A stretch of 64,000 nucleotides of DNA from a virus (Duplodnaviria; Caudoviricetes): positions 2,017 through 66,016 of the IMG/VR virus record IMGVR_UViG_3300049580_000022. One strand, 5' to 3'. A program made the position numbers and the translations under genes. The notes under the pieces were generated by a model, which was given only the letters and a program-made list of their open reading frames with translations, was not told the origin of the DNA and did no database searches. Positions 12,993 through 55,548 of the stretch are shown here, piece after piece (within the stretch, counting starts at the first letter, position 1; every line of letters begins with the position of its first letter).

Positions 12993-13418
12993 TCAGCCTC
13001 CTTCCGGCGGTTGCGGTGCTGGCGCTGCTGGGACACCGCGGGCATGGAGCGCGCCGCTTATGAAATCCACAAGCTGTGCAACGCTCTTCGGCCCGGAGAA
13101 ACCCAGCAATGACAACGCCATCACGGCAAACGCATCTACGGACCAATGGATGCTTTGAAGGAACGCAAGATACAGAATTGTCACAAAGGGCGCGCCGAAG
13201 ATGCCACAGCCAATCCAGGCGAGGCTCCGGGCAAGCTGCACCTTGTCACCACGTTCGAGCGTCTTTTGCATTTCCAGCATTCCGCGCCCGATGACACCGA
13301 TGGCCGCAAAGAGCGTGCCGATGGCGATGTCTTCCAGAGAAACCCCGAAGGGTGCAGAGCTAAACCACGCGGCGAAGCCTAGCGCGGTTGCGGTCTTGGC
13401 GGGCGACGTGGTGAACAT
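12993..13418 (-). CDS. Multi-TM protein, holin candidate
   Basis: Three to four hydrophobic segments; lies downstream of the spanins and the putative endolysin. Confidence 0.55.
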   Translation of the reverse strand: MFTTSPAKTATALGFAAWFSSAPFGVSLEDIAIGTLFAAIGVIGRGMLEMQKTLERGDKVQLARSLAWIGCGIFGAPFVTILYLAFLQSIHWSVDAFAVMALSLLGFSGPKSVAQLVDFISGALHARGVPAAPAPQPPEGG

Positions 13419-13509
13419 GACCGGCGCTTCCTTGTGAAAGAGGATGAGGCCGGATGGCGAAGGAAAAGGTGGAACGTCGCTCCGGCCTTCTTTCTTTCGT
13501 CGTCGTCTT

Positions 13510-13881
13510 TTACTGCGCAGGCTGGCAGAGCGCCCCGATGGCTGCGTTATTCAGCTTCACCCGCAGAATCGTGTCGTCTGTATCTCCCACGATATGCCGC
13601 ACAGCGCCAGCCCAATCCCGCTCATTGAGCGCGGCCAGCACATCTTCCTTCGTGAGGTCTTGCACGCCAGTCGCAGTGATCTTGCCCAGATGGTAATGGA
13701 TGATCTTCACTTCATCGCAGACGAAGGCGCGCAGCGGGATCGAGGCGTTGGGAACCGGATTAACTGACGCCATCGGCACCGCGGCTTGCTGCGTCCCCAT
13801 CAGGCTCGCGCACCCGTTCAGGGTGAGAAGCGATGTCAGAATCGACACGATCACGCGCTTGTTGTGCAAGGTCGATTTCAT
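13510..13881 (-). CDS. Lipoprotein, o-spanin (Rz1-like)
   Basis: MKSTLHNKRVIVSILTSLLTLNG-C lipobox; overlaps the Rz-like gene; GGAC/GGAG-rich leader. Confidence 0.65.
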   Translation of the reverse strand: MKSTLHNKRVIVSILTSLLTLNGCASLMGTQQAAVPMASVNPVPNASIPLRAFVCDEVKIIHYHLGKITATGVQDLTKEDVLAALNERDWAGAVRHIVGDTDDTILRVKLNNAAIGALCQPAQ

Positions 13882-14032
13882 GGAGTCCCTCTTGTGCGAT
13901 GGCCGATTGTGTCTTGACGGTCCCAAGCTCTTCGCCGGTCTTTTGTGCCAGGGCAACCGGGTCGGCGGCTTTGGAATAGCCGAACAATCCCAAGACGAAA
14001 TTGAGCGCGGTGCCGATCCAACTGAGATTCAT
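13760..14032 (-). CDS. i-spanin (Rz-like)
   Basis: N-terminal TM helix then a helical domain; ATGA-coupled to the endolysin candidate. Confidence 0.6.
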   Translation of the reverse strand: MNLSWIGTALNFVLGLFGYSKAADPVALAQKTGEELGTVKTQSAIAQEGLHEIDLAQQARDRVDSDIASHPERVREPDGDAASRGADGVS

Positions 14033-14502
14033 TTCGGAACATCCTTTACGTCGAGCCACGCTTCGCCGCCGTCAATCGCCTTGTAGAACAGCGGGTAGAT
14101 TTCTTCAAAGGCTGGCATACTTGTGCCCGGCGGTATCTGATAGCCGTTCGGCGTTTCGGCAATTCCCGGTGTGACTTTCCCGGTGCCCAGACATCCGAGC
14201 AAATCCGTGTAGCGGTTGGCGGTATGGATGAGAATGGCGGTGCGTCCCGGCACCTGTGAGACTTCCACCATGTTGCGATACCAGCGCGGGAAGCGCGCCT
14301 TATAGCGGGCATCGAAGCGACTCCCGCCGGGCTTGTGAATAAGCGGGTATCGGCCAGCGGGGATGCAGGGATGATCCATGGGCGCCGGGCCGCGCTCCAA
14401 GATCGTGGCAATGAGGCGATCCCTGCCGTCGCGCAACTCGCCCCAGGTCGAAACCTTGTCATGCCCCCGGCGCTGTAGCGTAAAGGTCGTAATGACGGTC
14501 AT
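14029..14502 (-). CDS. DUF5675-family protein, putative endolysin
   Basis: TILERGP...CIPAGRYPL...VPGRTAILIHTAN...DLLGCLGTG; first gene of the lysis cassette. Confidence 0.75.
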   Translation of the reverse strand: MTVITTFTLQRRGHDKVSTWGELRDGRDRLIATILERGPAPMDHPCIPAGRYPLIHKPGGSRFDARYKARFPRWYRNMVEVSQVPGRTAILIHTANRYTDLLGCLGTGKVTPGIAETPNGYQIPPGTSMPAFEEIYPLFYKAIDGGEAWLDVKDVPK

Positions 14503-26813: not shown

Positions 26814-28403
26814 TTACGCGGCGCGTTTCAAATGACGGGTGCGCTTTTCCAGACCGCGCACCGCAGAGGTGAGGGCGCCCACGGCTTCCGGCATGGGAAT
26901 GACCTTGCGGTTTGGATCGCCTGCAAACTCACGGCCCCAATCCTGCGCCATGGGGCCAATGCGCTTTCGGCCATCATCGCCAATCTGGGCGCGCACCTCC
27001 GGCTTGTAGCGATAGCCTTTCGCGCCGACGCGGCGCAGCTTGTCCAGCACGTCTTCATCATCGACTGGCTTGATGTCTTCCTTGGCGTTTTCGTCCGATG
27101 CGATGATTGCGCCGCCAATTGTCGAACCGGCGCCAAGCAATTGGCCCAACAGATTGCTGGGCTGGGATGTCGTGGTGGTTCCCGTCGCAGTCGTGGTCGC
27201 CCCATAAGGCACGCCGCCCGCCGCAGCGATGAGCGCATTAAGCTGGGTTAACGGATAATTCTGCTCGTTCTGCCATTGCTGGTAGGCGGCATTGTCTTCG
27301 TTCTGGCCCTGCTCCTGTTGGAGCGCGCCGGTGGACAGGAGACGGTTGAGCGCATCGTTCGCAAGCTGGCTTTGGGTGGTAGCCGTGCTGTTGCCCATGC
27401 CTGCGACCGCCAGCAGGCGGTTCACGTCATCGGTCGAAAGCTGGCTTTGCGTGGTGCCCAGATTAAGCTGGTTCTGCCCGGCCTGGCTGAGACGGTTAAG
27501 CGCCGCCGTCGCCAAATCGCTCTGGGTCGTTCCGGCGGTTTCGTTGGCGCTGGCGGCCTGCGTAAGCCGCGAGAGCGCATCATTGGACAGCGTGTTGGCC
27601 GTGGAGGCGTTCGTCTGGGACAGCCCCGCCGCGGTTGCATCGCGCGCTGCGCGGTTCTCTGCCTCCGCCACCGCAGCATTGTAGGCGTCCGAATAACCCT
27701 GCCCGGTGACCTGGGCGACCTGATTGAGAAGATCGGACTGGTTCTGCGCATCCTGCAATCCATAACGGGAGCCGCCGAAGCTGCCTCCCATGGCGGCCTT
27801 GGAGGCGAGATTGACGGAGTTCTGCCCGGCGACTTTCTGCAATTGCGCAACCACCGGATCGACCGCCGCCGAAACATACGGGTTGATGTAGCTGTTGATT
27901 TCGTCCGGGGAGAACGAGCCTGCGGAGTTCGCCGTGTAGGTGCGCGCCGCGTCCAGGTCGGCCTGCCCGGCGGTGTTGTCATTCACAGCCTTGTTGCCAG
28001 CCAGCGCCGCGAGGGCTGCGGCATTGTTCGCGGAGGTCGCGCCGGCACCCGTGGTCCCGGCGGCAAGATCGCCGGCCGCATTGTAGAGGCCAGTGGCGTT
28101 GTTGACGGCGCCCATCCAGTTCCCCGTTGCTCCATTGGCCGTGCTGGCCGCGCCGCCCAGCGCATTGCTGGCCGTCGATGCCGCGCCCTGCCCAGCTCCG
28201 GCGAGCGTCGGCGCCAGCGAGATGGCGGAATTCTGATTGCTGGAAAGCGGTGCGACAAGCTGGCCTGTGTATGGCGTGTAGGGTTTGTTCGCGATGGTCT
28301 GCGCTTTGTTGACCGCAGCTTGCCCGGCCTGATTCAGCCATTCGGGAAGCTGGACGGTCTGGGTCTGATTTTGCTTCTGCGTCGTCTTGCTGGAACCGCC
28401 CAT
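26814..28403 (-). CDS. Ejection/pilot protein with C-terminal peptidase S74-like domain
   Basis: MGGSSKTTQKQ...LPEW; YINPYV; GGSFGGSR; ASDENAKEDIKPV...YRYK...RIGPMAQD. Confidence 0.75.
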   Translation of the reverse strand: MGGSSKTTQKQNQTQTVQLPEWLNQAGQAAVNKAQTIANKPYTPYTGQLVAPLSSNQNSAISLAPTLAGAGQGAASTASNALGGAASTANGATGNWMGAVNNATGLYNAAGDLAAGTTGAGATSANNAAALAALAGNKAVNDNTAGQADLDAARTYTANSAGSFSPDEINSYINPYVSAAVDPVVAQLQKVAGQNSVNLASKAAMGGSFGGSRYGLQDAQNQSDLLNQVAQVTGQGYSDAYNAAVAEAENRAARDATAAGLSQTNASTANTLSNDALSRLTQAASANETAGTTQSDLATAALNRLSQAGQNQLNLGTTQSQLSTDDVNRLLAVAGMGNSTATTQSQLANDALNRLLSTGALQQEQGQNEDNAAYQQWQNEQNYPLTQLNALIAAAGGVPYGATTTATGTTTTSQPSNLLGQLLGAGSTIGGAIIASDENAKEDIKPVDDEDVLDKLRRVGAKGYRYKPEVRAQIGDDGRKRIGPMAQDWGREFAGDPNRKVIPMPEAVGALTSAVRGLEKRTRHLKRAA

Positions 28404-28404
28404 T

Positions 28405-28908
28405 TCAGTTCTCCGATTTCGGCGGGAAGAAAACGTGGTTTCCGCCAACGTAGGTGAAGCCCTTGATTCTGCGATAACGGTCTTGCGCTTCCGGACGCAT
28501 ACCCCACACGTTGTCCATGCGCAGCATCATGTTGTTTGTGATGGCCGCTGCTTGGGCGGCGCGCAGGAGCTTATCCGACGCATCCGTGACGCGCCGGTCT
28601 GGACGCACATAGAACCACAGGGCATTGAGGTGCTTGGAAAGCGGTGCCCATGGGAAACTGTCCACTTCCATGCCGACCGATCCGATAATCTGGCCGCCTT
28701 CTTCCGCGACGATCACGCCTTGGCGCAGGATGACATTAAGCCCCCATGCAATCGTCGGCGCTTCCTCCGCCGCCGGATAGGCGAGACGCAGTTCTTCAAA
28801 GTAGCCTTTCAGGAGAACATAGAGCGCGATCACATCGCGAGGTGTGGCGGCGCGCAGCGTAATTTCGCTGTCAGGAATCGCTGCCTTGGCTTTGGTCTTC
28901 GGGGCCAT
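28405..28908 (-). CDS. GNAT-family acetyltransferase
   Basis: ITLRAATPRDV...VIVAEEGGQIIGSVG...WFYVRPDRR...LLRAA...GFTYVGG. Confidence 0.75.
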   Translation of the reverse strand: MAPKTKAKAAIPDSEITLRAATPRDVIALYVLLKGYFEELRLAYPAAEEAPTIAWGLNVILRQGVIVAEEGGQIIGSVGMEVDSFPWAPLSKHLNALWFYVRPDRRVTDASDKLLRAAQAAAITNNMMLRMDNVWGMRPEAQDRYRRIKGFTYVGGNHVFFPPKSEN

Positions 28909-28950: not shown

Positions 28951-29190
28951 TCAGCCCTTGGCCGCGCGGCCAACCGCCTGAAGGTCAGATATCAGAGTGG
29001 CGAGGAAATTTCCAATGTCATCCGCCGTCGCCGTCCCCATGTCCAAGGTGCGCGTTTCGGTGTAGTTCGCCACCGTGTAGGGGCCAATCATCTTTTCCAG
29101 CACCTGAAAACGCCGGTCGATGTCCGTGAGGATTTGGCGCATCCGGCGCGCATCGTAGGTCTGGCTTGGCTCAGATATGCGCTTTGTCAT
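28951..29190 (-). CDS. Small tail-associated protein
   Basis: Coupled (TGATG) to the tail tubular gene. Confidence 0.7.
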   Translation of the reverse strand: MTKRISEPSQTYDARRMRQILTDIDRRFQVLEKMIGPYTVANYTETRTLDMGTATADDIGNFLATLISDLQAVGRAAKG

Positions 29191-31028
29191 CAGCGGCGCC
29201 CTGCGGGTGAGCCATCAACGCGCCATTGGCCCAGCGAGATGTCATTGCCCAATTCGTTGCCTTCCCATCGCAATGCGATCTGGCGCGCGCGCATGTGCAT
29301 ATCCAATCGCAGCGTCGAGACATTGAAGGACTTTGGACCTTTCACCATCTGCTGGCCCACTGGATATTTGCGTGCCTTCACGGAGAACTTGTGATTCCCG
29401 ATGATGACCGGCGCGCCGTCCCGATAGGCATAGTCGGGGAAGAAGCGCGCAAAGCGTTCGATGATTTCGCCCGAGCCTGTGGAAGCACCTGTGAGGACCG
29501 AACTCGAAGCCGGAATTTCCATATCGTAGGTTTCGAGAAAGTAGGGCAACGGGTCCACATCTGCGTCATGCCCAACCTCGGTTTGGCAAAGATAGCTGTT
29601 GTTGCCAGAGGGCTTTGCAGCCATTGGCACATCGCCAAAGACGTTTTGATCGAGAAGCGCGGTGAAGTTCCACGGATCGTCGCCAACCCACCATGTGCCA
29701 TCCTCGTAATTGAAGCCGGCGACCTTATCGACCTCCTGAGCGTTTTTGGACGGCCAGAAAATGAGGATTTCGTTCTTCGACTTGTTGCGGCCAACAACGC
29801 ACTTCGCCGCCTGGACGATGTTGATGTTCTCGAAAATCTTGCTCTGCACATCGCAAGGCAAAATCTTCACCGAACCATCGTAGGTCCAGAACGTGCCGCG
29901 GCCCATCGCATAAACGACGCCGTTCACATCGCACGCCGCATTCGGGCCGGTGAGCGATGCCACCTGTCCCTTGTCGGCAAAGTTGAAGATCAGATTGTCG
30001 CCGGAGAGCGTCATGGAATAGACGGTCGTATCGGTGATAACCACGATTTCATCCCGGCTGAGTAGGGCCGTGATGATTTGGCTTCCGTTATCCAACCGCT
30101 TGTCGCCCGCCGCATTTGTCGGGCTGGGCGTCCAGTCCGTGTAATCCTCACTGTCGGACCAGCGGATCAACATGGGATCGGGATTGGTTCCGTCATGCGA
30201 GCCGCACGAAACGAGAATGCGAAGCTGCGGCGATAGGATGACGCGGCGGTTTTGCGAAGGCGCTTCGGAGATGAGTGTGGCGCGCGTATCCGTTCCGCCG
30301 CTGGCCTGCCAGATATAGATTTCACGATCAACCGGAGAGGCAACCAGGTCTTCGCCCCAATTCACCAGCGACCAGATGCGCGCGATGGTGAGGAATTGCG
30401 AGACGCGCGCAGTCCCCCATGTGCCGCTGCCCCAGCCTCCGGCTCCCCATCCCGTGCCCAAGATAGAGTCCTGCGGGCCAGTGGTAATCTCATAGGCATA
30501 ATCCACGGCATCGCCACCGCCGGTTTCGGTCGCTGTGGCTTCGCTATCGTGGATGAACGTGTAGGTGTCATCATCCGGCACGGTGTCGATCACCCAACCG
30601 GCGTTCATGTCGAGGCCACCCACCGTGTCGGCACCCGTGAAGTTCACAAAATCTCCAACCGAGCGTCCATGGCCTGTGTCGGTAACGGTGACTTCGGCGC
30701 TTCCGTCTGTGGTGGAGAAAGGATCGGTGCCGAGCGTTCCGCTTTCGGCAATCGGCGTGATGTCGAAGAACGACACGCTGTCCGAAAGGTAGAGCTTCAA
30801 ATTCGTGCCCAGCGCCAGAATGTCTTGAAACGAAAGCGTCTGCCAAGACAGCAGAGAACGGCATATACCCAGCATGGAAGTGGCGATGTATTTCACCCAG
30901 CCGCCAAGCTTTTCGGGATTGGATTTGAAGAAGCGGACATTCGAGCCGTTCTTGAAACGGCCAACCGCCGTGCGTGGCGAGGCTTCCGAATAGATGCCTG
31001 GATTAATCGCGATGGGAAGCAGGCTCAT
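29190..31028 (-). CDS. Tail tubular/stabilisation protein (gp10/gp12-like beta-propeller)
   Basis: PGIYSE...NVRF...KLGGW; WSLVNWGEDLVA; IRWSDSEDYTDWTPSPTNAAG; RARQIALR...G.WR.D..P.GRR. Confidence 0.85.
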   Translation of the reverse strand: MSLLPIAINPGIYSEASPRTAVGRFKNGSNVRFFKSNPEKLGGWVKYIATSMLGICRSLLSWQTLSFQDILALGTNLKLYLSDSVSFFDITPIAESGTLGTDPFSTTDGSAEVTVTDTGHGRSVGDFVNFTGADTVGGLDMNAGWVIDTVPDDDTYTFIHDSEATATETGGGDAVDYAYEITTGPQDSILGTGWGAGGWGSGTWGTARVSQFLTIARIWSLVNWGEDLVASPVDREIYIWQASGGTDTRATLISEAPSQNRRVILSPQLRILVSCGSHDGTNPDPMLIRWSDSEDYTDWTPSPTNAAGDKRLDNGSQIITALLSRDEIVVITDTTVYSMTLSGDNLIFNFADKGQVASLTGPNAACDVNGVVYAMGRGTFWTYDGSVKILPCDVQSKIFENINIVQAAKCVVGRNKSKNEILIFWPSKNAQEVDKVAGFNYEDGTWWVGDDPWNFTALLDQNVFGDVPMAAKPSGNNSYLCQTEVGHDADVDPLPYFLETYDMEIPASSSVLTGASTGSGEIIERFARFFPDYAYRDGAPVIIGNHKFSVKARKYPVGQQMVKGPKSFNVSTLRLDMHMRARQIALRWEGNELGNDISLGQWRVDGSPAGRR

Positions 31029-31266
31029 TTTTCTTCGCCTTTACGATTTGCTTGTTCCAGTCATCGAACATCGCTGTTGCGTCGATCGTATCCCGGCAGA
31101 ACTGCGGAGCGTTCATATCGCAATGCGCTCCCGGATAATTGGCGAGACGCCAAATCAAATCCATCTGCGCTTGCGTGAGGGTGAGCGTATAGGTCTGCTG
31201 TGCTTCACCCGCCGAGGCGCAAGCGCAAGACGCGATAATTGCTAGGGCGGCCACAAGCGCTTTCAT
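31003..31266 (-). CDS. Small protein with Sec-type signal peptide
   Basis: MKALVAALAIIASCACASA|GE. Confidence 0.6.
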   Translation of the reverse strand: MKALVAALAIIASCACASAGEAQQTYTLTLTQAQMDLIWRLANYPGAHCDMNAPQFCRDTIDATAMFDDWNKQIVKAKKNEPASHRD

Positions 31267-31278
31267 GCGTTGCCTCGT

Positions 31279-31770
31279 TTATGTTCTGACAAGCGTAACG
31301 GAAACCGCACCCTGCGCAGTCTTTCCCGTCGCATCCGTTACCGTGCAAATGAAGGTGCCATCCTTCTCATTGCCCGGCGTTACGCCAGACTGAAAGCCCG
31401 TTGTTGCAGATGTGGGTGCCGTGATGGTCATGTTATCGCCGCTCGCATACGTCCATGCGTAAGTGTATGGCGCGGTGCCCCCGTTCACCGTGCATGTCGT
31501 ATAGCCGGCGAAGACCGGTGACGTTGAGCTTCGCCCTGTCAAAAACGATGGATCGGCATAAGCGGAATAGTAGGTGTAAACGAGATGCCATGAGCCACCG
31601 CTTCCCGCATAGACGGATTGCGGCAACCGATAAGCTCCGCCCGAACCCCCATAGGGAATAGTCACGGTGCGCCATGAGCCGCCCGAACCCGCATAGATGG
31701 TTGCCCATGCGGTTGCAGTCAGGAAGCCTGCGAAGATTGCGCCGAGCGCGAGTGCGAGAAGTTTGCGCAT
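31279..31770 (-). CDS. Tail-fibre-associated Ig-like protein with signal-peptide-like leader
   Basis: MRKLLALALGAIFAGFLTATAWA|TIYAGSGGSWR; GGTAPYTYAW; FICTVTDA. Confidence 0.75.
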   Translation of the reverse strand: MRKLLALALGAIFAGFLTATAWATIYAGSGGSWRTVTIPYGGSGGAYRLPQSVYAGSGGSWHLVYTYYSAYADPSFLTGRSSTSPVFAGYTTCTVNGGTAPYTYAWTYASGDNMTITAPTSATTGFQSGVTPGNEKDGTFICTVTDATGKTAQGAVSVTLVRT

Positions 31771-32888
31771 CAGTAGGTCATCCAGATGTCGCCATTGGCG
31801 GGAGTGCCAGATGGGCCGGAAGTGCTGACGGTGATGGTCGCCGTTGCACCATTCGCAAGACCGAGATTGGAACGCGCAGCACTGGCGCTTCCGAGATCGC
31901 TCAGGTTGCTTGCGCGCTGTAGGCTCGCAGCAATGGCGCTGGAATAATAGCTGGCTGCGGTGCCCGCCGCGTCAAACGCCGTGGTGTTGGAAGTTGCCGC
32001 GGTGCCAAGGCCAAGAGCCGTGCGCGTTCCCGCCGCGTTGGAGAACACCGGAGCCGCCGTGAAGGTCTGCGTTGTCGCCCAGGTGTTTGCGCCGTTGAGA
32101 AGCGGGATCGTGCCCCCCGATGTGCCGATGCTGTAAACCGCCGCATTCCCCAAGCCCAAGGCCGTGCGTGTCCCCGCTGCGTCCGAGAACACCGGGGCGC
32201 TGGTGAATGTCGCAGTCGTGGAGAACGTCACCGCCGAAGAGAATGTCTGCCCGGCGCTCCATGTATTTGCGCCGTTGAGAAGCGGGATCGTTGCGCCGGA
32301 AGTGCCGGTGTTCTGTGTGGCTGCTGTGCCCAGCCCCATGGCAGTTGCAAGCGCGGAAAGCGATGTGACGCCCGTGCCGCCATTGGCGACCGGAAGCGTT
32401 CCCGTCACCGCCGACAAATCGCCCACGGGAAATAGTTGATAGACGTTCCCGGCGGCGTCTCCGAAGACCTGAGCGTATTGATGGCTTGGCAGGCTTACCG
32501 TCACGCCGGAGCCTGCGGTGATGGTGATGGCGCTGTCAGAGGTGTTGTAGATCGCCGCCGTCTTGGCGAGGTCCGGGATTGTGATGGTGCGCGCCGTGCC
32601 CGGCGTGCCGGTGATGACCACCAGAGCATTGCGGGCCTGATCGGGCGAATTGTTCTCGGTCGTGAGCGTCACGTCCCCGGAGGTATCGTCCACGCTGACA
32701 ACGCCACTGGCGCATTTGTCCAGCATGGCAAACGCCGCATTGGCCTTGGTGCCCCACTGGGTATCGTTCGAGCCTGTCGGCATCTGCACAATGCGGCAGT
32801 TGGGCGTGTAGGTGTCGGCGCCGAAGGCCGGAGCGCAAAGCCACGCGCTTGCGGCCAGCGCCAGAGAAAGAAGCTTCCACAGTTTCAT
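31770..32888 (-). CDS. Tail fibre 1 with signal-peptide-like leader
   Basis: Leader then ADTYT...MPTGSNDTQWGTKAN (uvMED-type fibre anchor); LGLGTAAT/PLLNGANTW repeats; PANGDIW at the C-terminus. Confidence 0.8.
   Translation of the reverse strand: MKLWKLLSLALAASAWLCAPAFGADTYTPNCRIVQMPTGSNDTQWGTKANAAFAMLDKCASGVVSVDDTSGDVTLTTENNSPDQARNALVVITGTPGTARTITIPDLAKTAAIYNTSDSAITITAGSGVTVSLPSHQYAQVFGDAAGNVYQLFPVGDLSAVTGTLPVANGGTGVTSLSALATAMGLGTAATQNTGTSGATIPLLNGANTWSAGQTFSSAVTFSTTATFTSAPVFSDAAGTRTALGLGNAAVYSIGTSGGTIPLLNGANTWATTQTFTAAPVFSNAAGTRTALGLGTAATSNTTAFDAAGTAASYYSSAIAASLQRASNLSDLGSASAARSNLGLANGATATITVSTSGPSGTPANGDIWMTY
32086..32291. repeat. 180-bp-period intragenic repeat in tail fibre 1
   Basis: tttgcgccgttgagaagcgggatcgt at 32086-32111 and 32266-32291. 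Confidence 0.9.
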
Positions 32889-32890
32889 CG

Positions 32891-33310
32891 TTACGCTCCC
32901 ACGCGGATGATTGCGTTATTGTCGGTCGGCTGCGGCCATATCAGTGCGAAGCTGTTTGCAGCCGTATAGATGGCACCCAGGTCAATGACCGCGATGGCGC
33001 GATTATCCTTGGAGGCATTGTAGATCAAGCCGCAGCGCGCCGTGAACTGCGCGGGATTGACGATGATGTCCTCGAAGTCGATCAGTAGCTTGAAGGCGTC
33101 GGTAGCGAGTTTCGGAAAGCCATCGCTCAAAGTGAGGTCGAAGCCGCCAGCCGCATAGCCGGTCCCGGACGTTTCGCCATCGCTTGTGTAGGCGGTGAGC
33201 GTATCGGGATCGAGCGTGTCGCCTTCGTAGAGCGCCAGCTTCATCTGGTCCACGCCCCATTCGTCTTGAGCGCTCGCCAGCAGGTAGGATTTGCAGATGC
33301 GCTGTTTCAT
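32891..33310 (-). CDS. Conserved tail structural protein (KLALY...SGTGYxAGG family), paralog 1
   Basis: MKLALYEG...TAYTSDGETSGTGYAAGG...ARCGLIYNAS...AVIDLG...AIIRV. Confidence 0.8.
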   Translation of the reverse strand: MKQRICKSYLLASAQDEWGVDQMKLALYEGDTLDPDTLTAYTSDGETSGTGYAAGGFDLTLSDGFPKLATDAFKLLIDFEDIIVNPAQFTARCGLIYNASKDNRAIAVIDLGAIYTAANSFALIWPQPTDNNAIIRVGA

Positions 33311-33969
33311 AGCGGTGTGTTCGCCACGCTGGATTGACGGGATAGCTGATACTCTGCTCTGGCATTGCCGCGAAACTCGATCTTCGCCTTGGGCAATTGA
33401 TCGGCTGTGTAGCGGTTCTCCCAGACCTTCACCTGATCGGGATTGGTGAGATATTCCTCCGACGACAGCAGGCAGGCATAGAGAAGCAACTCCGGCACGT
33501 TCTTGGAGAGCCATGTGGTGGGGTTGGTTTCCGACAATCCCGCCGGCCGCACGATGCCGAAGGTCAAGACCTGATAGGCTTTGTCGGGCGCGTTCACGAA
33601 CAGGAGCGTTGATGGGCTGACTTCCGCATAGAAGGTCGGAAGCTCATTGTCCGTCTGGTTTTCCGCCCACGCCTCGCAATAGCTCTTCGTCTTGCGCACA
33701 ACACGCTTACGCTTTTGCGTGTCGGGATCGACCACATAGAGGTCGCGAATTTTCAGGACGCCATCCGGCCTTGTGAAATTGCGGCTCCCCACCGTGAGAT
33801 TGCCGCTGTTCAATTCGTCTTGGAAAATCTCAAGGTCCAGATCGCGCAGAACCTTCGACTCGCCCAAGCCAATGATGGCGTCCAAATTGGAAATCATGTC
33901 GTCCGACTGATCGTCCGTCATCTGCAAGATGTCGGCCTTGAGGCCCGCATATGTGGTTGGTCCCATCAC
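33307..33969 (-). CDS. Head-tail adaptor-like virion protein
   Basis: TYAGLKADI...I.LGESKVLRDL...TTWLSKNVPELLLYACL; coupled on both sides. Confidence 0.75.
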   Translation of the reverse strand: MMGPTTYAGLKADILQMTDDQSDDMISNLDAIIGLGESKVLRDLDLEIFQDELNSGNLTVGSRNFTRPDGVLKIRDLYVVDPDTQKRKRVVRKTKSYCEAWAENQTDNELPTFYAEVSPSTLLFVNAPDKAYQVLTFGIVRPAGLSETNPTTWLSKNVPELLLYACLLSSEEYLTNPDQVKVWENRYTADQLPKAKIEFRGNARAEYQLSRQSSVANTPL

Positions 33970-34309: not shown

Positions 34310-34837
34310 ATGCAAGAGAAAGATAAGATAGAAATATGGAAGCCCGTTCCAGAAGTTCACGGAATTTATGAAGTTTCTGATTGGGGAAGAGTTCGGCGTG
34401 CGGCCTGTCCCCATTGCAGAACAAAACCGAGATTGGTTACGCCGTGCCTTGATGGTTCTGGTTATTTCCAAGTTGGACTTTCCTATGGCGGCAGGAAGCC
34501 AATTCGTCGGAAAGTGCATCGTCTTATCATGGCTGCGTTTCATGGTGCCGATCCACGATGGGTAAATCATATTGATGGCAACCCGTCTAATAATCATCTT
34601 GAAAATTTGGAGTATGTAACTCCGCGCGAAAACGCTCTTCACAAGAGTCGAGTTCTTGGCAGATGGGGAGGTCCAGCGGGCAACAAGAATCATAAAGCTC
34701 TTGATCTTGATGTCGCCGCCATTCTCGAAATGAAAGCGCAAGGGATGAGTAATCGCGCAATTGCCCGTGAGCTTGATTTGAAATGCCACAAGGTCATCGG
34801 CGTTGTCGTTAATAGACGGCATTGGTCGCAACGATAA
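34310..34837 (+). mobile_element. NUMOD4-HNH homing endonuclease, antisense insertion
   Basis: EIWKPVPEVHGIYEVSDWGRVR; VHRLIMAAF...VNHIDGNPSNNHLENLEYVTPREN; lower GC; opposite strand. Confidence 0.9.
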
Positions 34838-37016: not shown

Positions 37017-38318
37017 CTATGCCGGTGCAGCTTTTTCCAATGCCTCAATGCGAGCAACGAGAGAGGCAATAGTGGCTTGATCTTTTTGGCGCAGCCATCG
37101 CTGATAAATTACTTCCATGGAGTGAGCTTCGGCATATCGGATTCCGTATTCGACGACCTGCTTACCGTTCACATCAAGCACTGCCGTCCAAATGCCATTC
37201 GGATGATCAGCCTCGACATAGATGTCATCGGGAGAGCTTGGATAGGGAACGACTTCCCATTTCGGATCGGCGCAGAAGAAAGAATAAACGCTGATGTCCA
37301 ATCCTCGGTCGGAAAAGACCTTCATTGCCTGTTGGGCGATAAGGCCCATTTTATAACGTGCGCCGCCTTGTGCCGGATCATCGCTTTCCTTTTCCGCGAT
37401 ACTTTCAAGAAGTTGGTAGCGACCCCATTCGATCTCTCCCCACGCTTCCATTTCGGTATCGCTGAGAGGCGAGAGTGGTGTCTTAATGCGCGCATCCGAT
37501 CCTGTCGTAATTCCATTAACGACGTAGCCATTTGAGTATCGAAAGGATGTCGGCACTCCGAGCTGCTTTGCATTGTCCTGCACAGGAAAAATCTGTTGCG
37601 TATCAAATTCCCACGTCGCAGGAATGGAGCCGCCGTTTTGAACATAAATATTAAATCCAGAAGTGGTCGAACCTCCGATTAATTGCCCCACGGTGGACGT
37701 GCTGGATAGTGACCAGTTCCTAGAAGCCGTCCCATCAGACAGGATCAGACCGGTTGATGAATATGGTCTAACGCCACCGCTGCCATCAATCTGTACCGGG
37801 TGGGAAAGGGCGGAACCTATAAGAAATAGAGATGTTCCATCGGTGCCAATATAACCGCCCGTCGTACCAGCATAAGAGATTCCAATGCTGTAAGTGTTGT
37901 TAGTGCTTCCAAAGACATTCGCAACGCTACTACCGACCGAATATAGGGCGGTAGAACCTGCGGAGCCCGGAGCGCCACCGATGCCAACCTTGTTGAATTG
38001 CGGGTTCTGCAAGAAATCCGCGCTCGCATCGCACCACACGGTCGGCGTGTTGGCGAAAGCCACCTTCGTTGTGCCACCGGCGCTCGATGACGTGACCGTG
38101 CGCGAAAGCGTGTTGGTGTCGCTGTTATAAGTCGTGAGGCCGACTTCCCATGTCGGCGGGACCGCAAGATCGTCTCGCGCCGAATATCGGCTCGTATCGC
38201 CATTGGCGAGGATGGCCGACCACGCGCGAAAGCCTGATACCGCTCCCGACAAGGTGAAATCGGCCGTGCCCGTGCTGGATGCGGTCTCTTTGACGTTATC
38301 ACCAAGGACGAAACTCAT
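37017..38318 (-). CDS. Tail fibre/spike 2 with C-terminal S74 chaperone
   Basis: MSFVLGDNVKETASSTGTADFTL...WEVGLTTY anchor; GSDARIKT...GLIAQQ...YGIRYAE...IEALE. Confidence 0.85.
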   Translation of the reverse strand: MSFVLGDNVKETASSTGTADFTLSGAVSGFRAWSAILANGDTSRYSARDDLAVPPTWEVGLTTYNSDTNTLSRTVTSSSAGGTTKVAFANTPTVWCDASADFLQNPQFNKVGIGGAPGSAGSTALYSVGSSVANVFGSTNNTYSIGISYAGTTGGYIGTDGTSLFLIGSALSHPVQIDGSGGVRPYSSTGLILSDGTASRNWSLSSTSTVGQLIGGSTTSGFNIYVQNGGSIPATWEFDTQQIFPVQDNAKQLGVPTSFRYSNGYVVNGITTGSDARIKTPLSPLSDTEMEAWGEIEWGRYQLLESIAEKESDDPAQGGARYKMGLIAQQAMKVFSDRGLDISVYSFFCADPKWEVVPYPSSPDDIYVEADHPNGIWTAVLDVNGKQVVEYGIRYAEAHSMEVIYQRWLRQKDQATIASLVARIEALEKAAPA

Positions 38319-38359: not shown

Positions 38360-38821
38360 TTAATTCAACTGAAGCAGGCTCGTACCTACGCCGTTCGTCG
38401 GCTGGACCAGCGTGAGCGTTCCGCCCGCAACGGTCTGGGTGCCACCGAAAGAACCAACATATACGGCTTTGTTCGTGGCAGACGAATTGTAGATGATAAG
38501 CCCATCGGTGCTGAAGCTTGCGCCGGTCCACGATGGATTGACTGACCATTGCCAGTACGCGCCTGTTCCGGACGTCAGCGGTGTGATGTTCTGCGCCGCC
38601 GTCCAGGCGAAACCGCCCGCCGTGTAGCCTGTGCCCGATACCTCGTCGGAATTTCCGGTAAGGTTGGAATAGTTCGTCGTGCCGGCGCCGTATGTTCCGG
38701 TCGGGGAGTTTTTGCAAAGCGCGGCCTTGAAGACATGGCCGGTCGTCGCCACGAAATTATGGATCGCTTGCGGCAGTTCGCCTTTGAAGCTCGTCGGAAA
38801 GGCGGTGGTGATTCCGGCCAT
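38360..38821 (-). CDS. Conserved tail structural protein (KxALY...SGTGYTAGG family), paralog 2
   Basis: TSFKGELPQAIHNF...FKAAL...EVSGTGYTAGG...LIIYNSS...FGG. Confidence 0.8.
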   Translation of the reverse strand: MAGITTAFPTSFKGELPQAIHNFVATTGHVFKAALCKNSPTGTYGAGTTNYSNLTGNSDEVSGTGYTAGGFAWTAAQNITPLTSGTGAYWQWSVNPSWTGASFSTDGLIIYNSSATNKAVYVGSFGGTQTVAGGTLTLVQPTNGVGTSLLQLN

Positions 38822-42081: not shown

Positions 42082-42990
42082 TCAGTCGTTGCCCGCGGAA
42101 GCGAACGTGCCGCGCGGGTCATGCCATCCAAATACGTACCGTTCTCTGCACTTATAGCGCATGTTGCCCGTCTCGAAATCCCCTTCGATCCCGCGGCTGA
42201 GCGCCTTGCGCTTGAAGTGCTGCAAGCCGCCTTCCTGATCGGTCGTGAGGAAGAAGGCATCGGGGTCCGTGAGGAACAGGTTGCAAGACCAATCCGGGAT
42301 TGTGCCCAGCTTGTTCATCGCGTTGATGTCGCGATCCGCCGTTCCCGGACGTTCCACGCCGGCGAGCAAGCGCTCGGCCACGAACTTCAGTTCCTTCGGA
42401 AGGATCATCTTCTTGATGCGGATTTGCGCAGGGATACCGCGGTCATCCACCGTGCCATCAACCATGATGGACAGCGCTTCGAGGGAGCTTTCGCTCAGGT
42501 CTGCCGGGGTATCCAGCGTATTGGCGAAGGTGCCTCCGCCGCCCAGAGGATGGGAGGTGGAATACAACGACTGGCCGTCACCGCCCTTGTAGTTAGGGTC
42601 GAAGCCGTTGTTGAGGATCGAGGCACCCTTGATCTCCTTGGTAAAGACCATGGAGCGCGCCAGCGACTTGGCATACTTGCCGCCGATGGAGCCATAGAGG
42701 CCATCCTCTTCCGCTTCCTCGGTGATCGCGAAGGCCAGCGCGATGGTTTCGGCCTCGAAGCGCGAGAACCACAGTTCACGCCCTTCGTCGTAAGCCACCC
42801 CGGAGCCTTCCGGTTTCACCCGGCCGGCACCAAGGCCCATCTCCTGCACCTGTTCCTCGACCGCCTTGTCTGCGGCAACCTGCTCGTAGATGTCTTTCCA
42901 CATCTCCGGGTAGGAGCGGTATTTCAGGCCGAACACCGCATTCAGCCCCAACTGAAGCTGCTTGCGGAATAGATTGCGATTCATAACCAT
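42082..42990 (-). CDS. Major capsid protein (HTVC010P/uvMED-like family)
   Basis: QLQLGLNAVFGLKY...ETIALAFAITEEAEEDGLY...LARSM..TKEIKGASILNNGF...GDFETGNMRYKCRERYVFGWHDPRG. Confidence 0.92.
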   Translation of the reverse strand: MVMNRNLFRKQLQLGLNAVFGLKYRSYPEMWKDIYEQVAADKAVEEQVQEMGLGAGRVKPEGSGVAYDEGRELWFSRFEAETIALAFAITEEAEEDGLYGSIGGKYAKSLARSMVFTKEIKGASILNNGFDPNYKGGDGQSLYSTSHPLGGGGTFANTLDTPADLSESSLEALSIMVDGTVDDRGIPAQIRIKKMILPKELKFVAERLLAGVERPGTADRDINAMNKLGTIPDWSCNLFLTDPDAFFLTTDQEGGLQHFKRKALSRGIEGDFETGNMRYKCRERYVFGWHDPRGTFASAGND

Positions 42991-47561: not shown

Positions 47562-50003
47562 TCATTGGGCGGCTGGTGGTAACGGCGGCCCTGCTTCCTG
47601 GGCACCAATGTCTGGTTGCGGGGCGGGCGCAGCGGCTTGCATTTCCTTGTCGATTTGCCCTGCCTGAGCGGCGCCGGGCTGTATGGCACCTCCGGCTTTC
47701 GCCAACGATGCCACGCCGGCCGCGACGTTCTTGAAGATGTTGGCCTTGGTTTCATCGTCCGAGAGATTGTCCTTCTCGGCATCTGCGGGCGGGATTGTGA
47801 GGCCGGAGGATTGCATGAACGCGCCCACCATCTGGGCCGCCGCCTGGGCGATGGCATTCGCGGGGATGGGCGATTGATCGGGGTTGTCGAGCGGCGTGCC
47901 CGGCGGGGCTGCGATGTTGATAGGCGGCACGGGAACGCCAGCGCCGCGGTAGATGTCCGCCTGCTTGAGCGCGAGATGCTGGGCAATGTGGGCGATCATG
48001 GCCGGTCCCAGCGCCTGCTGGGCCTGTGGCAAGCCACCGAATTGCGGGTGCTGCATGAATGCCATGTGGACGGCAAGATGCGCGTCATGGTCCTGGCCCT
48101 CGATCGCCACCGCAGGGTGGCCGGTTGCCATGGCGGCATTCTCCGTCACCGGGTCGATGTCGGGCAGCTTCTCGCTGTCGATCAGGACGGTATCAATCTC
48201 CGGGTCTTTGAGCGCGGTAAGGAGCGAGCGCAAGACGGGCGTGCGGCGAAAGTCTTGCGGATTGTCCCGGAAAAGCTGGTAACGCGCCTGCGCCAGCGCG
48301 ATGCGCTGCGTCTGGCTGAAAATGTTGGGATCGCTCACCGGTTCGGCACCGGTAATCTTCTCGTTGTAATCCTGCTGATAAACCGCGAGGTCTTCGCCCG
48401 GCACGGTATATTCGTAGCCTTCCGCAGGAATGAACTTGGCATTGAGCTTGTAGAGAATGCGCAACTCCACGCCGTTGGAGAAATGCGCGCGCTTGTGAAT
48501 GCCCGAATAGACCTTCATGCCCTGTTCGATGAGGGCGACGATCGATCCGACCGGCGCACCCTTGGCATCTTGCTGGCCGGTCAAGAGGTCTGTGGTGGAG
48601 GCGAATTTCTGCGCCAAATCCACCAGCGTTCCGAACAGCTTGTAGAGCGCTTCGCTGGGTTCCTTGAACGGCGGCGTGTGGAACGCCTTCGCAAGCTCAT
48701 CCGATGTCATGTCCACATCGGTCCACTGGCCGGGGCGCATGTGAATCTCGCCCGCCTTCGATGAGGCATCCTTGGCTTTGAAGCCGCCTTGCAAGTTCGC
48801 CCATGTGGCGCTGTCCAAGAGCGCTCGGAGCGTATCGGTGCCCGCTTCCGCCAGCGTGCCAAGCCAATGCAAAAGGCCCGTGCCGTAGGCTCCCAAGCCG
48901 GGCAGATACCAGTATTCCGCGTAGCGCACGCAAGGCAGGCGTAGCGGGTCTTCCTCTTCCCAGTTGCGGCGAATGGAAACGATCTTGCGGGAATCCTTTT
49001 CCATCGTGACCGTGTAGGGCAGCGCTATGCCGTCTGGGTCCGCCATGGGATCATCCGCAAGCACAAGGCGCAGATCGGTTTCGTAGAACGTCCACGCCAC
49101 ATCCTTGGAGGCTTTCTCGGGCGTGAGGCTGTCGGACTTGTCCATTTCCTGCTGGACTTCATCCGGCTGTTCGATGTCGCCAATTTCGTCCAACTGGACA
49201 TTCTGCGCATATGCGCCGGCGCGCTGGCCCAAGATGTATTCGTTCTTCTCGACCGGGTAACGATGGGTGGCGCGGGGCGCGCTTTGCAGATTGCGCGCGC
49301 CGTAGGGGAGAATGAGGTCTTCGGCTGTCACGAAGCGCAGCAAGTTCTGGTCGCGCACATAGTCGTGATAGCCCTTGCGATAGCCGCTCCCATAGATCGC
49401 CAGATAGAGCGCGAGCTTTTCGCTCTCCGGCATGTAGATCGGGTCTTCAACCGTAAGCTGGTGGTTCATGTGCTTTTGCACACGGTCGGCGGCTTCGCGC
49501 TTCTCCGGCGTTTCCTTGCCCATCACCACGGTTTTGCAGGGACCCTGGGCGGGAAAGATTTCTTCCATGAAGCGCGCCTGGCTCTGCACAACAGCCGTTG
49601 TCATCAGCGGTGCAATGACCGTGGACGCGCCCTCAAAGGGTGCGGTGCCGTTCTGCCAGACGTAATCCTTGAGACCGACAATCTCTAGCCCGCGGGCGAA
49701 GCGCTGATACCAGTCTGCGCGAGAGCGGAGGTCTGCCTCGATCGCTTCGCTCAGATCGTCTGCGATTGTCGTGAGGTCTGAGCTAGAGACGAATGCCACA
49801 AGATTTTCGTCATGCGAAACCGATATCGGCCCCTGTTCCTCCAATGGCCCCGACGCGCTGATTTCTTCCAAGGTGAGAAGATCGGCGTCCGGGATATCGG
49901 AGCCGGTCCCATCCATGAGCGTTGTCATGTCTGGGTTGCGCGGATCGGGTGCAGGCGCTGGCGTGCCTTGCACCCGCATGGCGGGGATACCGGGGCCGCT
50001 CAT
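47562..50003 (-). CDS. Portal protein
   Basis: SRADW...GL...PFEGASTVIAPLMTTAVVQSQAR..EIFPAQGP...EAADRV..HMNHQLT; PFKEPSEAL; APVGSIVALIEQG.KVYSGIHKR.H. Confidence 0.92.
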   Translation of the reverse strand: MSGPGIPAMRVQGTPAPAPDPRNPDMTTLMDGTGSDIPDADLLTLEEISASGPLEEQGPISVSHDENLVAFVSSSDLTTIADDLSEAIEADLRSRADWYQRFARGLEIVGLKDYVWQNGTAPFEGASTVIAPLMTTAVVQSQARFMEEIFPAQGPCKTVVMGKETPEKREAADRVQKHMNHQLTVEDPIYMPESEKLALYLAIYGSGYRKGYHDYVRDQNLLRFVTAEDLILPYGARNLQSAPRATHRYPVEKNEYILGQRAGAYAQNVQLDEIGDIEQPDEVQQEMDKSDSLTPEKASKDVAWTFYETDLRLVLADDPMADPDGIALPYTVTMEKDSRKIVSIRRNWEEEDPLRLPCVRYAEYWYLPGLGAYGTGLLHWLGTLAEAGTDTLRALLDSATWANLQGGFKAKDASSKAGEIHMRPGQWTDVDMTSDELAKAFHTPPFKEPSEALYKLFGTLVDLAQKFASTTDLLTGQQDAKGAPVGSIVALIEQGMKVYSGIHKRAHFSNGVELRILYKLNAKFIPAEGYEYTVPGEDLAVYQQDYNEKITGAEPVSDPNIFSQTQRIALAQARYQLFRDNPQDFRRTPVLRSLLTALKDPEIDTVLIDSEKLPDIDPVTENAAMATGHPAVAIEGQDHDAHLAVHMAFMQHPQFGGLPQAQQALGPAMIAHIAQHLALKQADIYRGAGVPVPPINIAAPPGTPLDNPDQSPIPANAIAQAAAQMVGAFMQSSGLTIPPADAEKDNLSDDETKANIFKNVAAGVASLAKAGGAIQPGAAQAGQIDKEMQAAAPAPQPDIGAQEAGPPLPPAAQ

Positions 50004-55290: not shown

Positions 55291-55548
55291 TTAGGGATGG
55301 TTCCGGGTGGGCTCCCATACGTCCACGTCCGTGCAGGTGCCGTCTTTGGGCGTCTGGTGGCAAACGACATGACCGGAAGCTTTCGGGGTCGGGAGGGTGA
55401 TGGCATCGCCTTCGGTGTGGAGGGAGGCTGGGCGGTTATTTGCGGCGTCTGTTTCCTCGTAGATGGGCGCGGGGGCTGGCGGCTGGGCTGCGAAGGCTGG
55501 GGTGGCAGAGATGAGTTGGAGGGCGAAGATTATGGTGGCGAGCATCAT
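55291..55548 (-). CDS. Small secreted protein
   Basis: Signal peptide ending PAFA; ATGA coupling. Confidence 0.55.
   Translation of the reverse strand: MMLATIIFALQLISATPAFAAQPPAPAPIYEETDAANNRPASLHTEGDAITLPTPKASGHVVCHQTPKDGTCTDVDVWEPTRNHP

What the first reader, a model, noticed from the sequence alone, without database searches (positions are those of the whole stretch)
31003..32888. Three consecutive tail-module genes with Sec-type signal peptides, including a tail fibre
Seen: MKLWKLLSLALAASAWLCAPAFG|ADTYT, MRKLLALALGAIFAGFLTATAWA|TIY and MKALVAALAIIASCACASA|GE each have a basic n-region, hydrophobic h-region and AxA/AxG site. The fibre ATG has GGAG at 7 nt, and the conserved fibre anchor (xxTYT...TG.N...WG...N), which normally follows the initiator Met directly, begins right after the predicted cut. 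Established: tailed virions assemble in the cytoplasm. Inference: fibre 1 and its partners are exported or membrane-tethered and matured by signal peptidase. That would point to periplasmic or lysis-time fibre attachment, a receptor-blocking decoy, or a membrane assembly platform. Fibre 2 has no leader.
Basis: partly seen in the sequence, partly recalled or inferred. Interest (0 to 1): 0.72.

Follow-up and report, generated by a model that had tools for sequence, protein, structure and literature searches.

The report
Phage tail fibre carrying export signal
A complete 66-kb short-tailed phage puts ordinary bacterial secretion signals on its main tail fibre and the two small proteins encoded after it, so these host-recognition parts probably fold in the periplasm and not in the cytoplasm where tailed phages build their particles; I found no paper describing this.

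Summary
Three consecutive minus-strand late genes carry n/h/c leaders ending in AxG or AxA: fibre 31770-32888, a 163-aa Ig-like protein 31279-31770, and an 87-aa Cys-pair protein 31003-31266.

The fibre is the canonical one of a conserved module (adaptor, phrog_644 protein, fibre, nozzle). Its anchor domain occurs in 122 proteins:
- 98 start at Met plus 0-2 residues, including all 80 IMG/VR relatives.
- 24 carry a divergent 21-35-aa leader whose -3/-1 site lies exactly at anchor residue 1. They form one nested clade, so SPase cleavage would give the same mature end (ADTYT) as Met removal in the leaderless forms.

A covarying Cys31/Cys59 pair occurs only in leader-bearing fibres (15/24 against 0/98). 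A syntenic relative also has leaders on both the fibre and its partner. In a third phage the same fibre-partner-nozzle module has no leaders.

I read this as Sec export with signal-peptidase processing (about 0.7). Whether the exported fibre ends up on the virion at lysis (about 0.25) or acts in the envelope is unresolved. I ran no trained predictor and no experiment. Six literature searches found no description, but this scan has noted the same pattern in other phage genomes.

The parts
32896..32900 (-). Shine-Dalgarno GGGAG, 7 nt before the fibre ATG; the upstream gene's TAA is at 32891-32893
   Evidence: read from the sequence
32820..32888 (-). fibre leader, codons 1-23: n-region MKLWK, h-region LLSLALAASAWL, c-region CAPAFG with A at -3 and G at -1
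   Evidence: AF2 helix 2-17 lies outside the fold
32439..32819 (-). fibre N-terminal anchor domain, residues 24-150, with Cys31 and Cys59
   Evidence: anchor HMM found in 122 proteins; ESM Atlas TM 0.8 to N-terminal domains of viral proteins, aligned from residue 23; weak fold hits to tailspike N-domains and T4 baseplate proteins
31770..32438 (-). fibre shaft repeats (NLSDL..AR.NLGLG..AT) and short C-terminal motif ITVSTSGPSGTPANGDIWMTY, plus stop
   Evidence: PHROG tail-fibre families; profile match to solved fibres 9zd7 gp92 and 7z47
31279..31770 (-). 163-aa partner: leader (codons 1-23, 31702-31770), GGxW beta-repeats, C-terminal PKD/Ig-like domain with Cys93 and Cys142
   Evidence: Pfam PF22352; AF2 pLDDT above 94 for residues 70-163 and Foldseek PKD/Ig hits; homologs elsewhere lack a leader
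31003..31266 (-). 87-aa protein: leader (ASA|GE or lipobox IAS|C), mature part with a CX7C pair; GAGG at 31273-31276
   Evidence: single homolog P0135 (35% identity, leader and Cys pair conserved)
32891..33310 (-). phrog_644 protein (139 aa from the ATGA-coupled start); no leader; precedes the fibre in most relatives; candidate docking partner
33307..33969 (-). SU10-type tail adaptor; no leader
   Evidence: Pfam PF24175, E 5.8e-16
29190..31028 (-). nozzle or hub-like virion protein (phrog_3287); no leader; its start overlaps the end of the 87-aa gene by 26 nt

Best explanation
The canonical adaptor-proximal tail fibre of this podovirus-like phage, the Ig-like protein encoded after it and a small Cys-pair protein are late proteins that carry real Sec-type signal peptides. 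They are translated from the annotated ATGs and threaded across the inner membrane. Signal peptidase I then cuts them (the 87-aa protein possibly by the lipoprotein route) exactly at the first residue of the conserved mature domains. They fold in the oxidising periplasm, using a disulfide in the anchor (Cys31-Cys59), one in the Ig domain and one in the small protein. Fibre and partner must share a compartment, which explains why both gained leaders. Shown: the leaders, their conservation, the position of the cut site, and the clade-specific Cys pair. Inferred: export, cleavage and disulfides. What happens next is open. My leading guess is that the fibre set meets the fibreless particles when holin, endolysin and spanin lysis merges the compartments. 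I rate that last step at only about 0.25.
For: (1) 24 of 122 anchor-bearing proteins have 21-35-aa leaders with a basic n-region, a hydrophobic core and [AVS]-x-[AGS] ending exactly at anchor residue 1. Mean pairwise identity is 38% in the leaders and 65% in the anchors. (2) 98 relatives, including all 80 IMG/VR ones, start M-A-[DS]-T-Y. Met removal and SPase cleavage would therefore give the same mature N-terminus. (3) The leader-bearing fibres form one nested clade. (4) Cys31 and Cys59 occur together in 15 of 24 leader-bearing anchors, in 0 of 98 leaderless ones, and never singly. (5) The syntenic relative G001:C25 has a leader-bearing fibre followed by a leader-bearing 297-aa GGxW protein with 8 Cys. 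p163 homologs elsewhere lack leaders, and L205 has the same fibre-partner-nozzle module entirely without leaders. (6) 0 of 77 fibres sharing the shaft in other viral contigs have a leader. (7) No alternative start exists before residue 34. (8) A spanin-like pair and a holin-like gene point to a diderm host. (9) Exported trimeric fibre-like proteins with a signal peptide followed by a ~130-aa beta-rich domain exist in Bdellovibrio (PMC10769870).
Against: No trained predictor (SignalP) and no experiment was available; the leader test is home-made. Tailed-phage virions assemble in the cytoplasm, and the candidate docking proteins (phrog_644, adaptor, nozzle) have no leaders. An exported fibre is therefore topologically separated from its particle until lysis. 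The even Cys count is not discriminating, since nine other structural proteins of this phage also have even counts. The AF2 model of the fibre is poor (pLDDT 52).
Confidence: 0.7

Rival explanations
1. The proteins are exported but never join the virion. The fibre and its partners act in the envelope of the infected cell, for example by masking or sequestering the receptor so that progeny are not lost on debris or superinfecting phages are excluded. This would be functionally like T5 Llp or the Cor lipoproteins. Adsorption would then be left to fibre 2 and the other S74 proteins.
For: The phage has other leaderless fibre-type proteins (37017-38318 and 26814-28448, both PF13884). Small exported proteins next to receptor-binding genes are a known kind (my own knowledge of Llp and Cor). 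The 87-aa protein has a loose lipobox. Relatives carry further leader-bearing proteins in their tail modules (G001:C25, L032, L205). This reading needs no unprecedented assembly route.
Against: The leader-bearing fibre is the only protein in the genome with this anchor, and it sits in the canonical fibre slot. Its anchor stays as conserved as the virion proteins (65% within the clade; 53% to L120, against 45-62% for adaptor, phrog_644 and nozzle). That is hard to explain if it no longer docks. The genes are translationally coupled inside the late operon, with no promoter or terminator signal above chance. There is no sequence similarity to any Pfam or PHROG exclusion family. From the periplasm a protein cannot reach the outer face of the outer membrane.
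Confidence: 0.25
2. The leader is translated but does not drive productive export during infection. The fibre stays in the cytoplasm or on the cytoplasmic face of the membrane and is loaded onto particles there. The hydrophobic N-terminus would serve as a transient tether or assembly aid, and would be removed by some other protease or kept.
For: This fits the textbook cytoplasmic assembly of tailed phages. The window's leader has a moderate h-region (best 8-residue Kyte-Doolittle mean 2.48) and an AxG site.
Against: A basic n-region followed by a hydrophobic core gives N-in orientation and translocation of the rest. Conservation of a -3/-1 small-residue site exactly at the domain boundary in 24 divergent leaders has no reason in the cytoplasm, because signal peptidase acts on the periplasmic face. 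The clade-specific Cys pair and the 8-Cys partner also argue for an oxidising compartment.
Confidence: 0.1
3. Annotation artefact: translation really starts downstream (Val34 or Met36, as in database entry P0001), and the leader is untranslated upstream sequence.
For: A 337-aa version starting at Met36 is in the protein collection.
Against: Residues 24-35 (ADTYTPNCRIVQ) align with the N-termini of 98 leaderless relatives. The ORF and a leader are kept in 24 independent sequences. GGGAG lies 7 nt before the upstream ATG. P0001 comes from a 1.4-kb contig.
Confidence: 0.02

Closest known systems
Leaderless adaptor-proximal tail fibres of the same phage group (IMG/VR relatives L001-L080; fibre of Phage DSL-LC04, OR003939)
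   Same: The N-terminal anchor domain is homologous. The gene position is the same, between the phrog_644/adaptor genes and the nozzle gene. The shaft repeats and the C-terminal motif are also shared.
   Different: They begin M-A-[DS]-T-Y directly. Here a 23-aa secretion-type leader precedes the same residues, and a Cys pair has appeared in the anchor.
Bdellovibrio bacteriovorus MAT fibres (Caulton et al. 2024, PMC10769870)
   Same: The architecture matches: signal peptide, then a conserved beta-rich N-terminal domain of about 130 aa, then a phage-tail-fibre-like trimeric shaft. These proteins show that such fibres can be exported and fold outside the cytoplasm.
   Different: They are chromosomal genes of a predatory bacterium, displayed on its own surface. 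Here the gene is the structural fibre gene of a complete phage genome. Homology of the N-domains was not tested.
T5 Llp and Cor-type lipoproteins (exported phage proteins encoded beside receptor-binding genes)
   Same: They are small exported proteins encoded next to the fibre or receptor-binding gene. They are a possible analogy for the 87-aa protein.
   Different: No sequence similarity was found. They are not fibre-shaped and are not expressed as part of a coupled late structural operon. This comparison rests on my own knowledge of those systems.
Secretory and SAR endolysins; filamentous-phage pIII and pVIII
   Same: These are phage late or structural proteins that use the host Sec system and signal peptidase.
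   Different: Endolysins are not virion parts. Ff phages assemble at the membrane and have no cytoplasmic capsid. I found no tailed-phage fibre of this kind described.
Signal peptides noted on Porphyromonas phage genes (Matrishin et al. 2023, PMC10367356)
   Same: Tailed phages encoding proteins with predicted Sec signal peptides adapted to the host.
   Different: In that paper the signals are on capsid, spanin and unknown genes. Tail fibres are not mentioned.

Membership tests
Sec-type (signal peptidase I) signal peptide | Basic n-region, hydrophobic h-region of about 7-15 residues, c-region with small residues at -3 and -1, and no Pro at +1 | tested here: met
   All three window proteins and 24 of 24 leader-bearing fibre homologs pass a rule-based test. 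The site coincides with the domain start.
Sec-type (signal peptidase I) signal peptide | Positive call by a trained predictor (SignalP, DeepTMHMM) | not testable with these tools
   No such predictor is installed.
Sec-type (signal peptidase I) signal peptide | Demonstrated export and cleavage | not testable with these tools
   This needs PhoA or GFP fusions, fractionation and N-terminal sequencing.
Lipoprotein (signal peptidase II) signal, for the 87-aa protein | Lipobox [LVI][ASTVI][GAS]C at the end of the h-region | tested here: inconclusive
   IAS|C fits. The only homolog, P0135, has LAN|C at the aligned Cys, which is not canonical.
Tat signal peptide | Twin-arginine motif in the n-region, with a longer and less hydrophobic leader | tested here: not met
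   The window leader has no RR. One sub-clade of homologs (P0011, P0015, P0019, P0020, P0025, L120) has RRN[LFV]AE in 32-33-aa leaders; this was not followed further.
Adaptor-proximal podovirus tail fibre of this anchor family | Homologous N-terminal anchor domain | tested here: met
   HMM score 199 bits for the window protein; 122 members; Atlas structural TM 0.8.
Adaptor-proximal podovirus tail fibre of this anchor family | Gene lies between the adaptor/phrog_644 genes and the nozzle gene | tested here: met
   Synteny across the IMG/VR loci and G001:C25.
Adaptor-proximal podovirus tail fibre of this anchor family | Anchor begins directly after the initiator Met | tested here: not met
   A 23-aa leader precedes it.
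Adaptor-proximal podovirus tail fibre of this anchor family | Present in purified virions | not testable with these tools
   The phage is uncultured. No cultured member of the leader-bearing clade was found in the phage collection.
Llp/Cor-type exclusion lipoproteins | Sequence membership in a described family | tested here: not met
   The 87-aa protein has no Pfam or PHROG hit. There is one uncharacterised homolog among 1.8 billion representatives.
PKD/Ig-like domain (163-aa protein) | Beta-sandwich fold and family profile match | tested here: met
   PF22352 at 27.7 bits, cutoff 27; AF2 pLDDT above 94; Foldseek hits to PKD domains of AAVR and KIAA0319.

The most novel reading that the evidence does not exclude
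The virion's own fibre set is made as a secreted complex. The fibre, its Ig-like distal partner and a small helper are exported, trimmed by signal peptidase and disulfide-bonded in the periplasm. They are attached to fibreless particles, finished in the cytoplasm, only when lysis merges the two compartments. That would be a two-compartment assembly pathway for a tailed phage. It seems to have arisen in one clade of about 65-kb soil and freshwater podophages, and this scan's other notes suggest it has arisen in other phage groups too.
Probability: 0.25. Interest if true: 0.9.

Novelty: new variant of a known kind. Interest (0 to 1): 0.62.

Why it matters
All textbook tailed-phage morphogenesis is cytoplasmic. 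A canonical fibre that has been converted into a secreted, disulfide-bonded protein, with the processed N-terminus exactly preserved, would mean one of two things:
- The last assembly step happens at or after lysis.
- A receptor-binding protein has been redeployed into the host envelope.

Either outcome bears on how host range modules evolve, and on how fibres are stabilised in harsh environments. It also matters for recombinant expression of such fibres for phage engineering or diagnostics, because they would need periplasmic expression. The clean contrast between leader-bearing and leaderless orthologues makes the question directly testable.

Tried and rejected
- **Downstream start (Met36, database entry P0001).** Rejected, because it would delete conserved anchor residues.
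- **DNA-pattern scans for QMPTGSND.** Viral contigs gave 0 hits. Metagenome contigs gave 28 hits, none homologous by tblastn, so all chance. Genome contigs gave 11 hits, of which only L120 is real.
- **Equal contig length of P0016 and L055.** This suggested the same record, but a search found no match.
- **Loci for P0082 and P0081.** The matches covered only the common shaft. They served as a negative control: 0 of 77 have a real leader, and five rule hits were false positives at internal starts.
- **AF2 of the fibre.** The model is poor (pLDDT 52), and Foldseek gave only weak hits to tailspike N-domains and T4 baseplate proteins.
- **The 87-aa protein.** No Pfam, PHROG or usable ESM Atlas lead.
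- **Cys-count parity.** Dropped as an argument, because the other structural proteins also have even counts.
- **Independent promoter or terminator (moron-like).** Nothing above chance.
- **Tat export.** Not applicable to the window's leader.
- **Literature.** Six searches found signal peptides only on endolysins, spanins, capsid or unknown genes, or the unrelated eCIS loading signals.
Full report
**What is there**

The window is 64 kb of a complete 66,016-bp IMG/VR phage record with direct terminal repeats. On the minus strand a late structural operon runs in this order:
- portal (47562-50003) and major head protein (42082-42990);
- a first phrog_644 gene (38360-38821) and leaderless fibre 2 with an S74 chaperone (37017-38318);
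- an SU10-type adaptor (33307-33969, PF24175);
- a second phrog_644 gene (32891-33310, ATGA-coupled to the adaptor stop);
- the three genes of the finding;
- a 612-aa nozzle or hub-like virion protein (29190-31028, phrog_3287), then ejection-type proteins.

GGGAG lies 7 nt before the fibre ATG. The 163-aa gene overlaps the fibre stop by one base. The 87-aa gene has GAGG 6 nt upstream. Promoter-like and terminator-like sites are not above chance, so these are coupled late genes and not an independently expressed insertion.

**Are the leaders more than chance?**

No trained predictor was available. I wrote a rule requiring net positive charge in the n-region, an uncharged run of at least 10 residues with a hydrophobic 8-residue core, and small residues at -3 and -1. 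Of 395 ORFs of at least 60 aa in the window, 13 pass. A stricter version passes 6. The three genes are the only convincing ones on the coding strand.

The stronger argument is comparative. A profile of the fibre's residues 24-150 finds the domain in 122 proteins:
- 98 begin at Met plus 0-2 residues (M-A-[DS]-T-Y-[ST]..LR), including every one of the 80 best IMG/VR relatives.
- 24, including the window and L120, have 21-35 extra N-terminal residues. All 24 pass the rule, and a [AVS]-x-[AGS] site ends exactly at the first anchor residue.

Leaders average 38% pairwise identity and anchors 65%. That is the expected signature of a signal peptide, selected for physical character and not for sequence. 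Met excision in the leaderless forms and signal-peptidase cleavage in the others would produce the same mature N-terminus, A-D-T-Y-T. No ATG, GTG or TTG lies between codons 2 and 33, so a downstream start (database entry P0001, Met36, from a 1.4-kb contig) would remove conserved residues. I reject that start.

**Evolutionary pattern**

In a quick maximum-likelihood tree of the anchor domain, the 24 leader-bearing rows sit in one nested group. At least two gains or losses are needed, and one origin is not excluded. The leaderless P0005, L001 and L002 lie next to them.

Cys31 and Cys59 occur together in 15 of 24 leader-bearing anchors, never singly, and in none of 98 leaderless ones. A covarying pair limited to the leader-bearing clade is what a periplasmic disulfide would look like. 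I do not use Cys-count parity, because nine other structural proteins of this phage also have even counts.

**The partners**

The 163-aa protein has GGxW beta-repeats and a confidently modelled PKD/Ig-like domain (PF22352; pLDDT above 94; Foldseek hits to PKD domains). Its two Cys lie on the strands modelled at 86-96 and 134-145. Its eight homologs from metagenomes start directly with the first repeat and have no leader.

Three module states are available:
- In viral contig L205 the same module is entirely leaderless: a short fibre ending ...STSAPSGGSNGDIWFVY, a p163 homolog, then the nozzle.
- In the one syntenic relative I could read, a 31-kb MAG contig (G001:C25; 45-62% identity across adaptor, phrog_644 and nozzle), the fibre carries a 33-aa leader. 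It is followed by a 297-aa GGxW protein with its own leader and eight Cys.
- In the window, fibre and partner both carry leaders.

So fibre and partner gained leaders together. This makes sense if they must meet in one compartment.

The 87-aa protein has one homolog among 1.8 billion representatives (P0135, 35% identity). The leader, a Cys at the end of the h-region and a CX7-9C pair are conserved. Whether it is a lipoprotein is undecided.

**Is it a real fibre?**

Four results say yes:
- The shaft repeats match solved virion fibres (9zd7 short tail fibre gp92, E 8.5e-19; 7z47 putative tail fibre) and PHROG tail-fibre families.
- The anchor fold matches N-terminal domains of viral proteins with varied C-terminal modules (TM 0.8, aligned from residue 23). 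It weakly matches tailspike N-domains and T4 baseplate proteins.
- The gene holds the canonical slot between the phrog_644/adaptor genes and the nozzle gene across the IMG/VR relatives.
- It is the only protein with this anchor in the genome. It is therefore the orthologue of the normal fibre and not a duplicated decoy.

**Controls and breadth**

None of 77 complete fibres sharing the shaft in other viral contigs has a real leader. Among 1,214 plus-strand ORFs of at least 120 aa in 162 loci, 12 pass the strict rule. These include three consecutive ones in L032 and two in L205, all inside tail modules. G001:C25 has three more, of 794, 92 and 74 aa. Of the 120 closest shaft homologs in the large protein collection, 22 belong to the anchor clade and about 21 others, with different N-terminal domains, also look leader-bearing. 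Their context is unknown.

**Host and lysis**

Four neighbouring genes suggest a diderm host with standard three-step lysis. This is an inference:
- a TM-plus-coiled-coil ORF (13760-14059);
- an overlapping lipobox ORF (from 13881);
- a multi-TM 141-aa ORF;
- a DUF5675 protein.

**Mechanism**

I take Sec export, signal-peptidase processing and oxidative folding in the periplasm as the best-supported reading, at about 0.7. The destination is not settled.

For attachment at lysis: the fibre is orthologous to the normal one, it is the sole copy of the anchor, the anchor is conserved, and the mature N-terminus is exactly preserved.

Against it: the candidate docking proteins have no leaders, no precedent exists, and the phage has other fibres. 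I give the full two-compartment assembly reading about 0.25 and an envelope-acting, non-virion role about 0.25. Cytoplasmic retention gets about 0.1 and an artefact about 0.02.

**Literature and earlier notes**

Six full-text searches found signal peptides discussed for endolysins, spanins, capsid or unknown genes (for example PMC10367356) and the unrelated loading signals of contractile injection systems. None concerned a tailed-phage fibre.

Caulton et al. 2024 (PMC10769870) describe exported Bdellovibrio fibres with a signal peptide directly followed by a conserved ~130-aa beta-rich domain. This is the closest published architecture.

This scan has noted the same pattern on other phage genomes. 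Later checks of two of those notes kept the observation but priced the virion-export reading near 10%, which made me lower my own odds for that step.

**Limits**

- There was no SignalP and no model coordinates.
- The fibre model is poor.
- The tree is a quick search.

Noticed in passing
window 38360-38821 and 32891-33310 (minus strand): Each of the two fibre genes is directly preceded by a phrog_644 gene. The family also precedes the fibre in most IMG/VR relatives, so it may be the fibre's docking or adaptor protein.
   Followed up: partly
L123:14722-15000, L124:2632-2856, L124:4366-6750 (G001:C25, minus strand): The syntenic relative has three further coding-strand ORFs with leader-like N-termini in its tail region. 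One is a 794-aa protein. Another is a 92-aa protein with a CX7C pair that resembles the window's 87-aa protein in layout. None has a family hit.
   Followed up: partly
L032:3747-6360 and L205:2520-5566: Other IMG/VR phages of this group have two or three consecutive leader-bearing ORFs inside their tail modules, although their anchor-type fibre is leaderless.
   Followed up: partly
homologs P0011, P0015, P0019, P0020, P0025 and L120:2347-3303: One sub-clade of leader-bearing fibres has longer leaders (32-33 aa) with a conserved RRN[LFV]AE motif and no Cys at all in the mature protein. This hints at a possible Tat-like route, which exports folded proteins.
   Followed up: no
window 12993-14502 (minus strand): Candidate lysis cassette: a DUF5675 protein (14029-14502), a TM plus coiled-coil ORF (13760-14059), an overlapping lipobox ORF (MKSTLH...LNGC, from 13881), and a multi-TM 141-aa ORF (12993-13418).
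   Followed up: partly
window 34310-34837 (plus strand): A 175-aa ORF on the opposite strand inside the tail module looks like a NUMOD4/HNH homing endonuclease (IWKPV...GYEVS and NHIDGN...NLE motifs, judged by eye).
   Followed up: no
window 55291-55548 (minus strand): An 85-aa ORF in the early region has a leader-like N-terminus, MMLATIIFALQLISATPAFA|AQPP.
   Followed up: no
protein collection hits P0038, P0056, P0058, P0063, P0079, P0081, P0082 and others: About 21 further proteins sharing the fibre shaft but with different N-terminal domains also carry leader-like N-termini. In P0082 the leader precedes another common fibre-anchor motif (TNLG...GADADAWG). This suggests independent gains. 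Their genomic context is unknown.
   Followed up: partly
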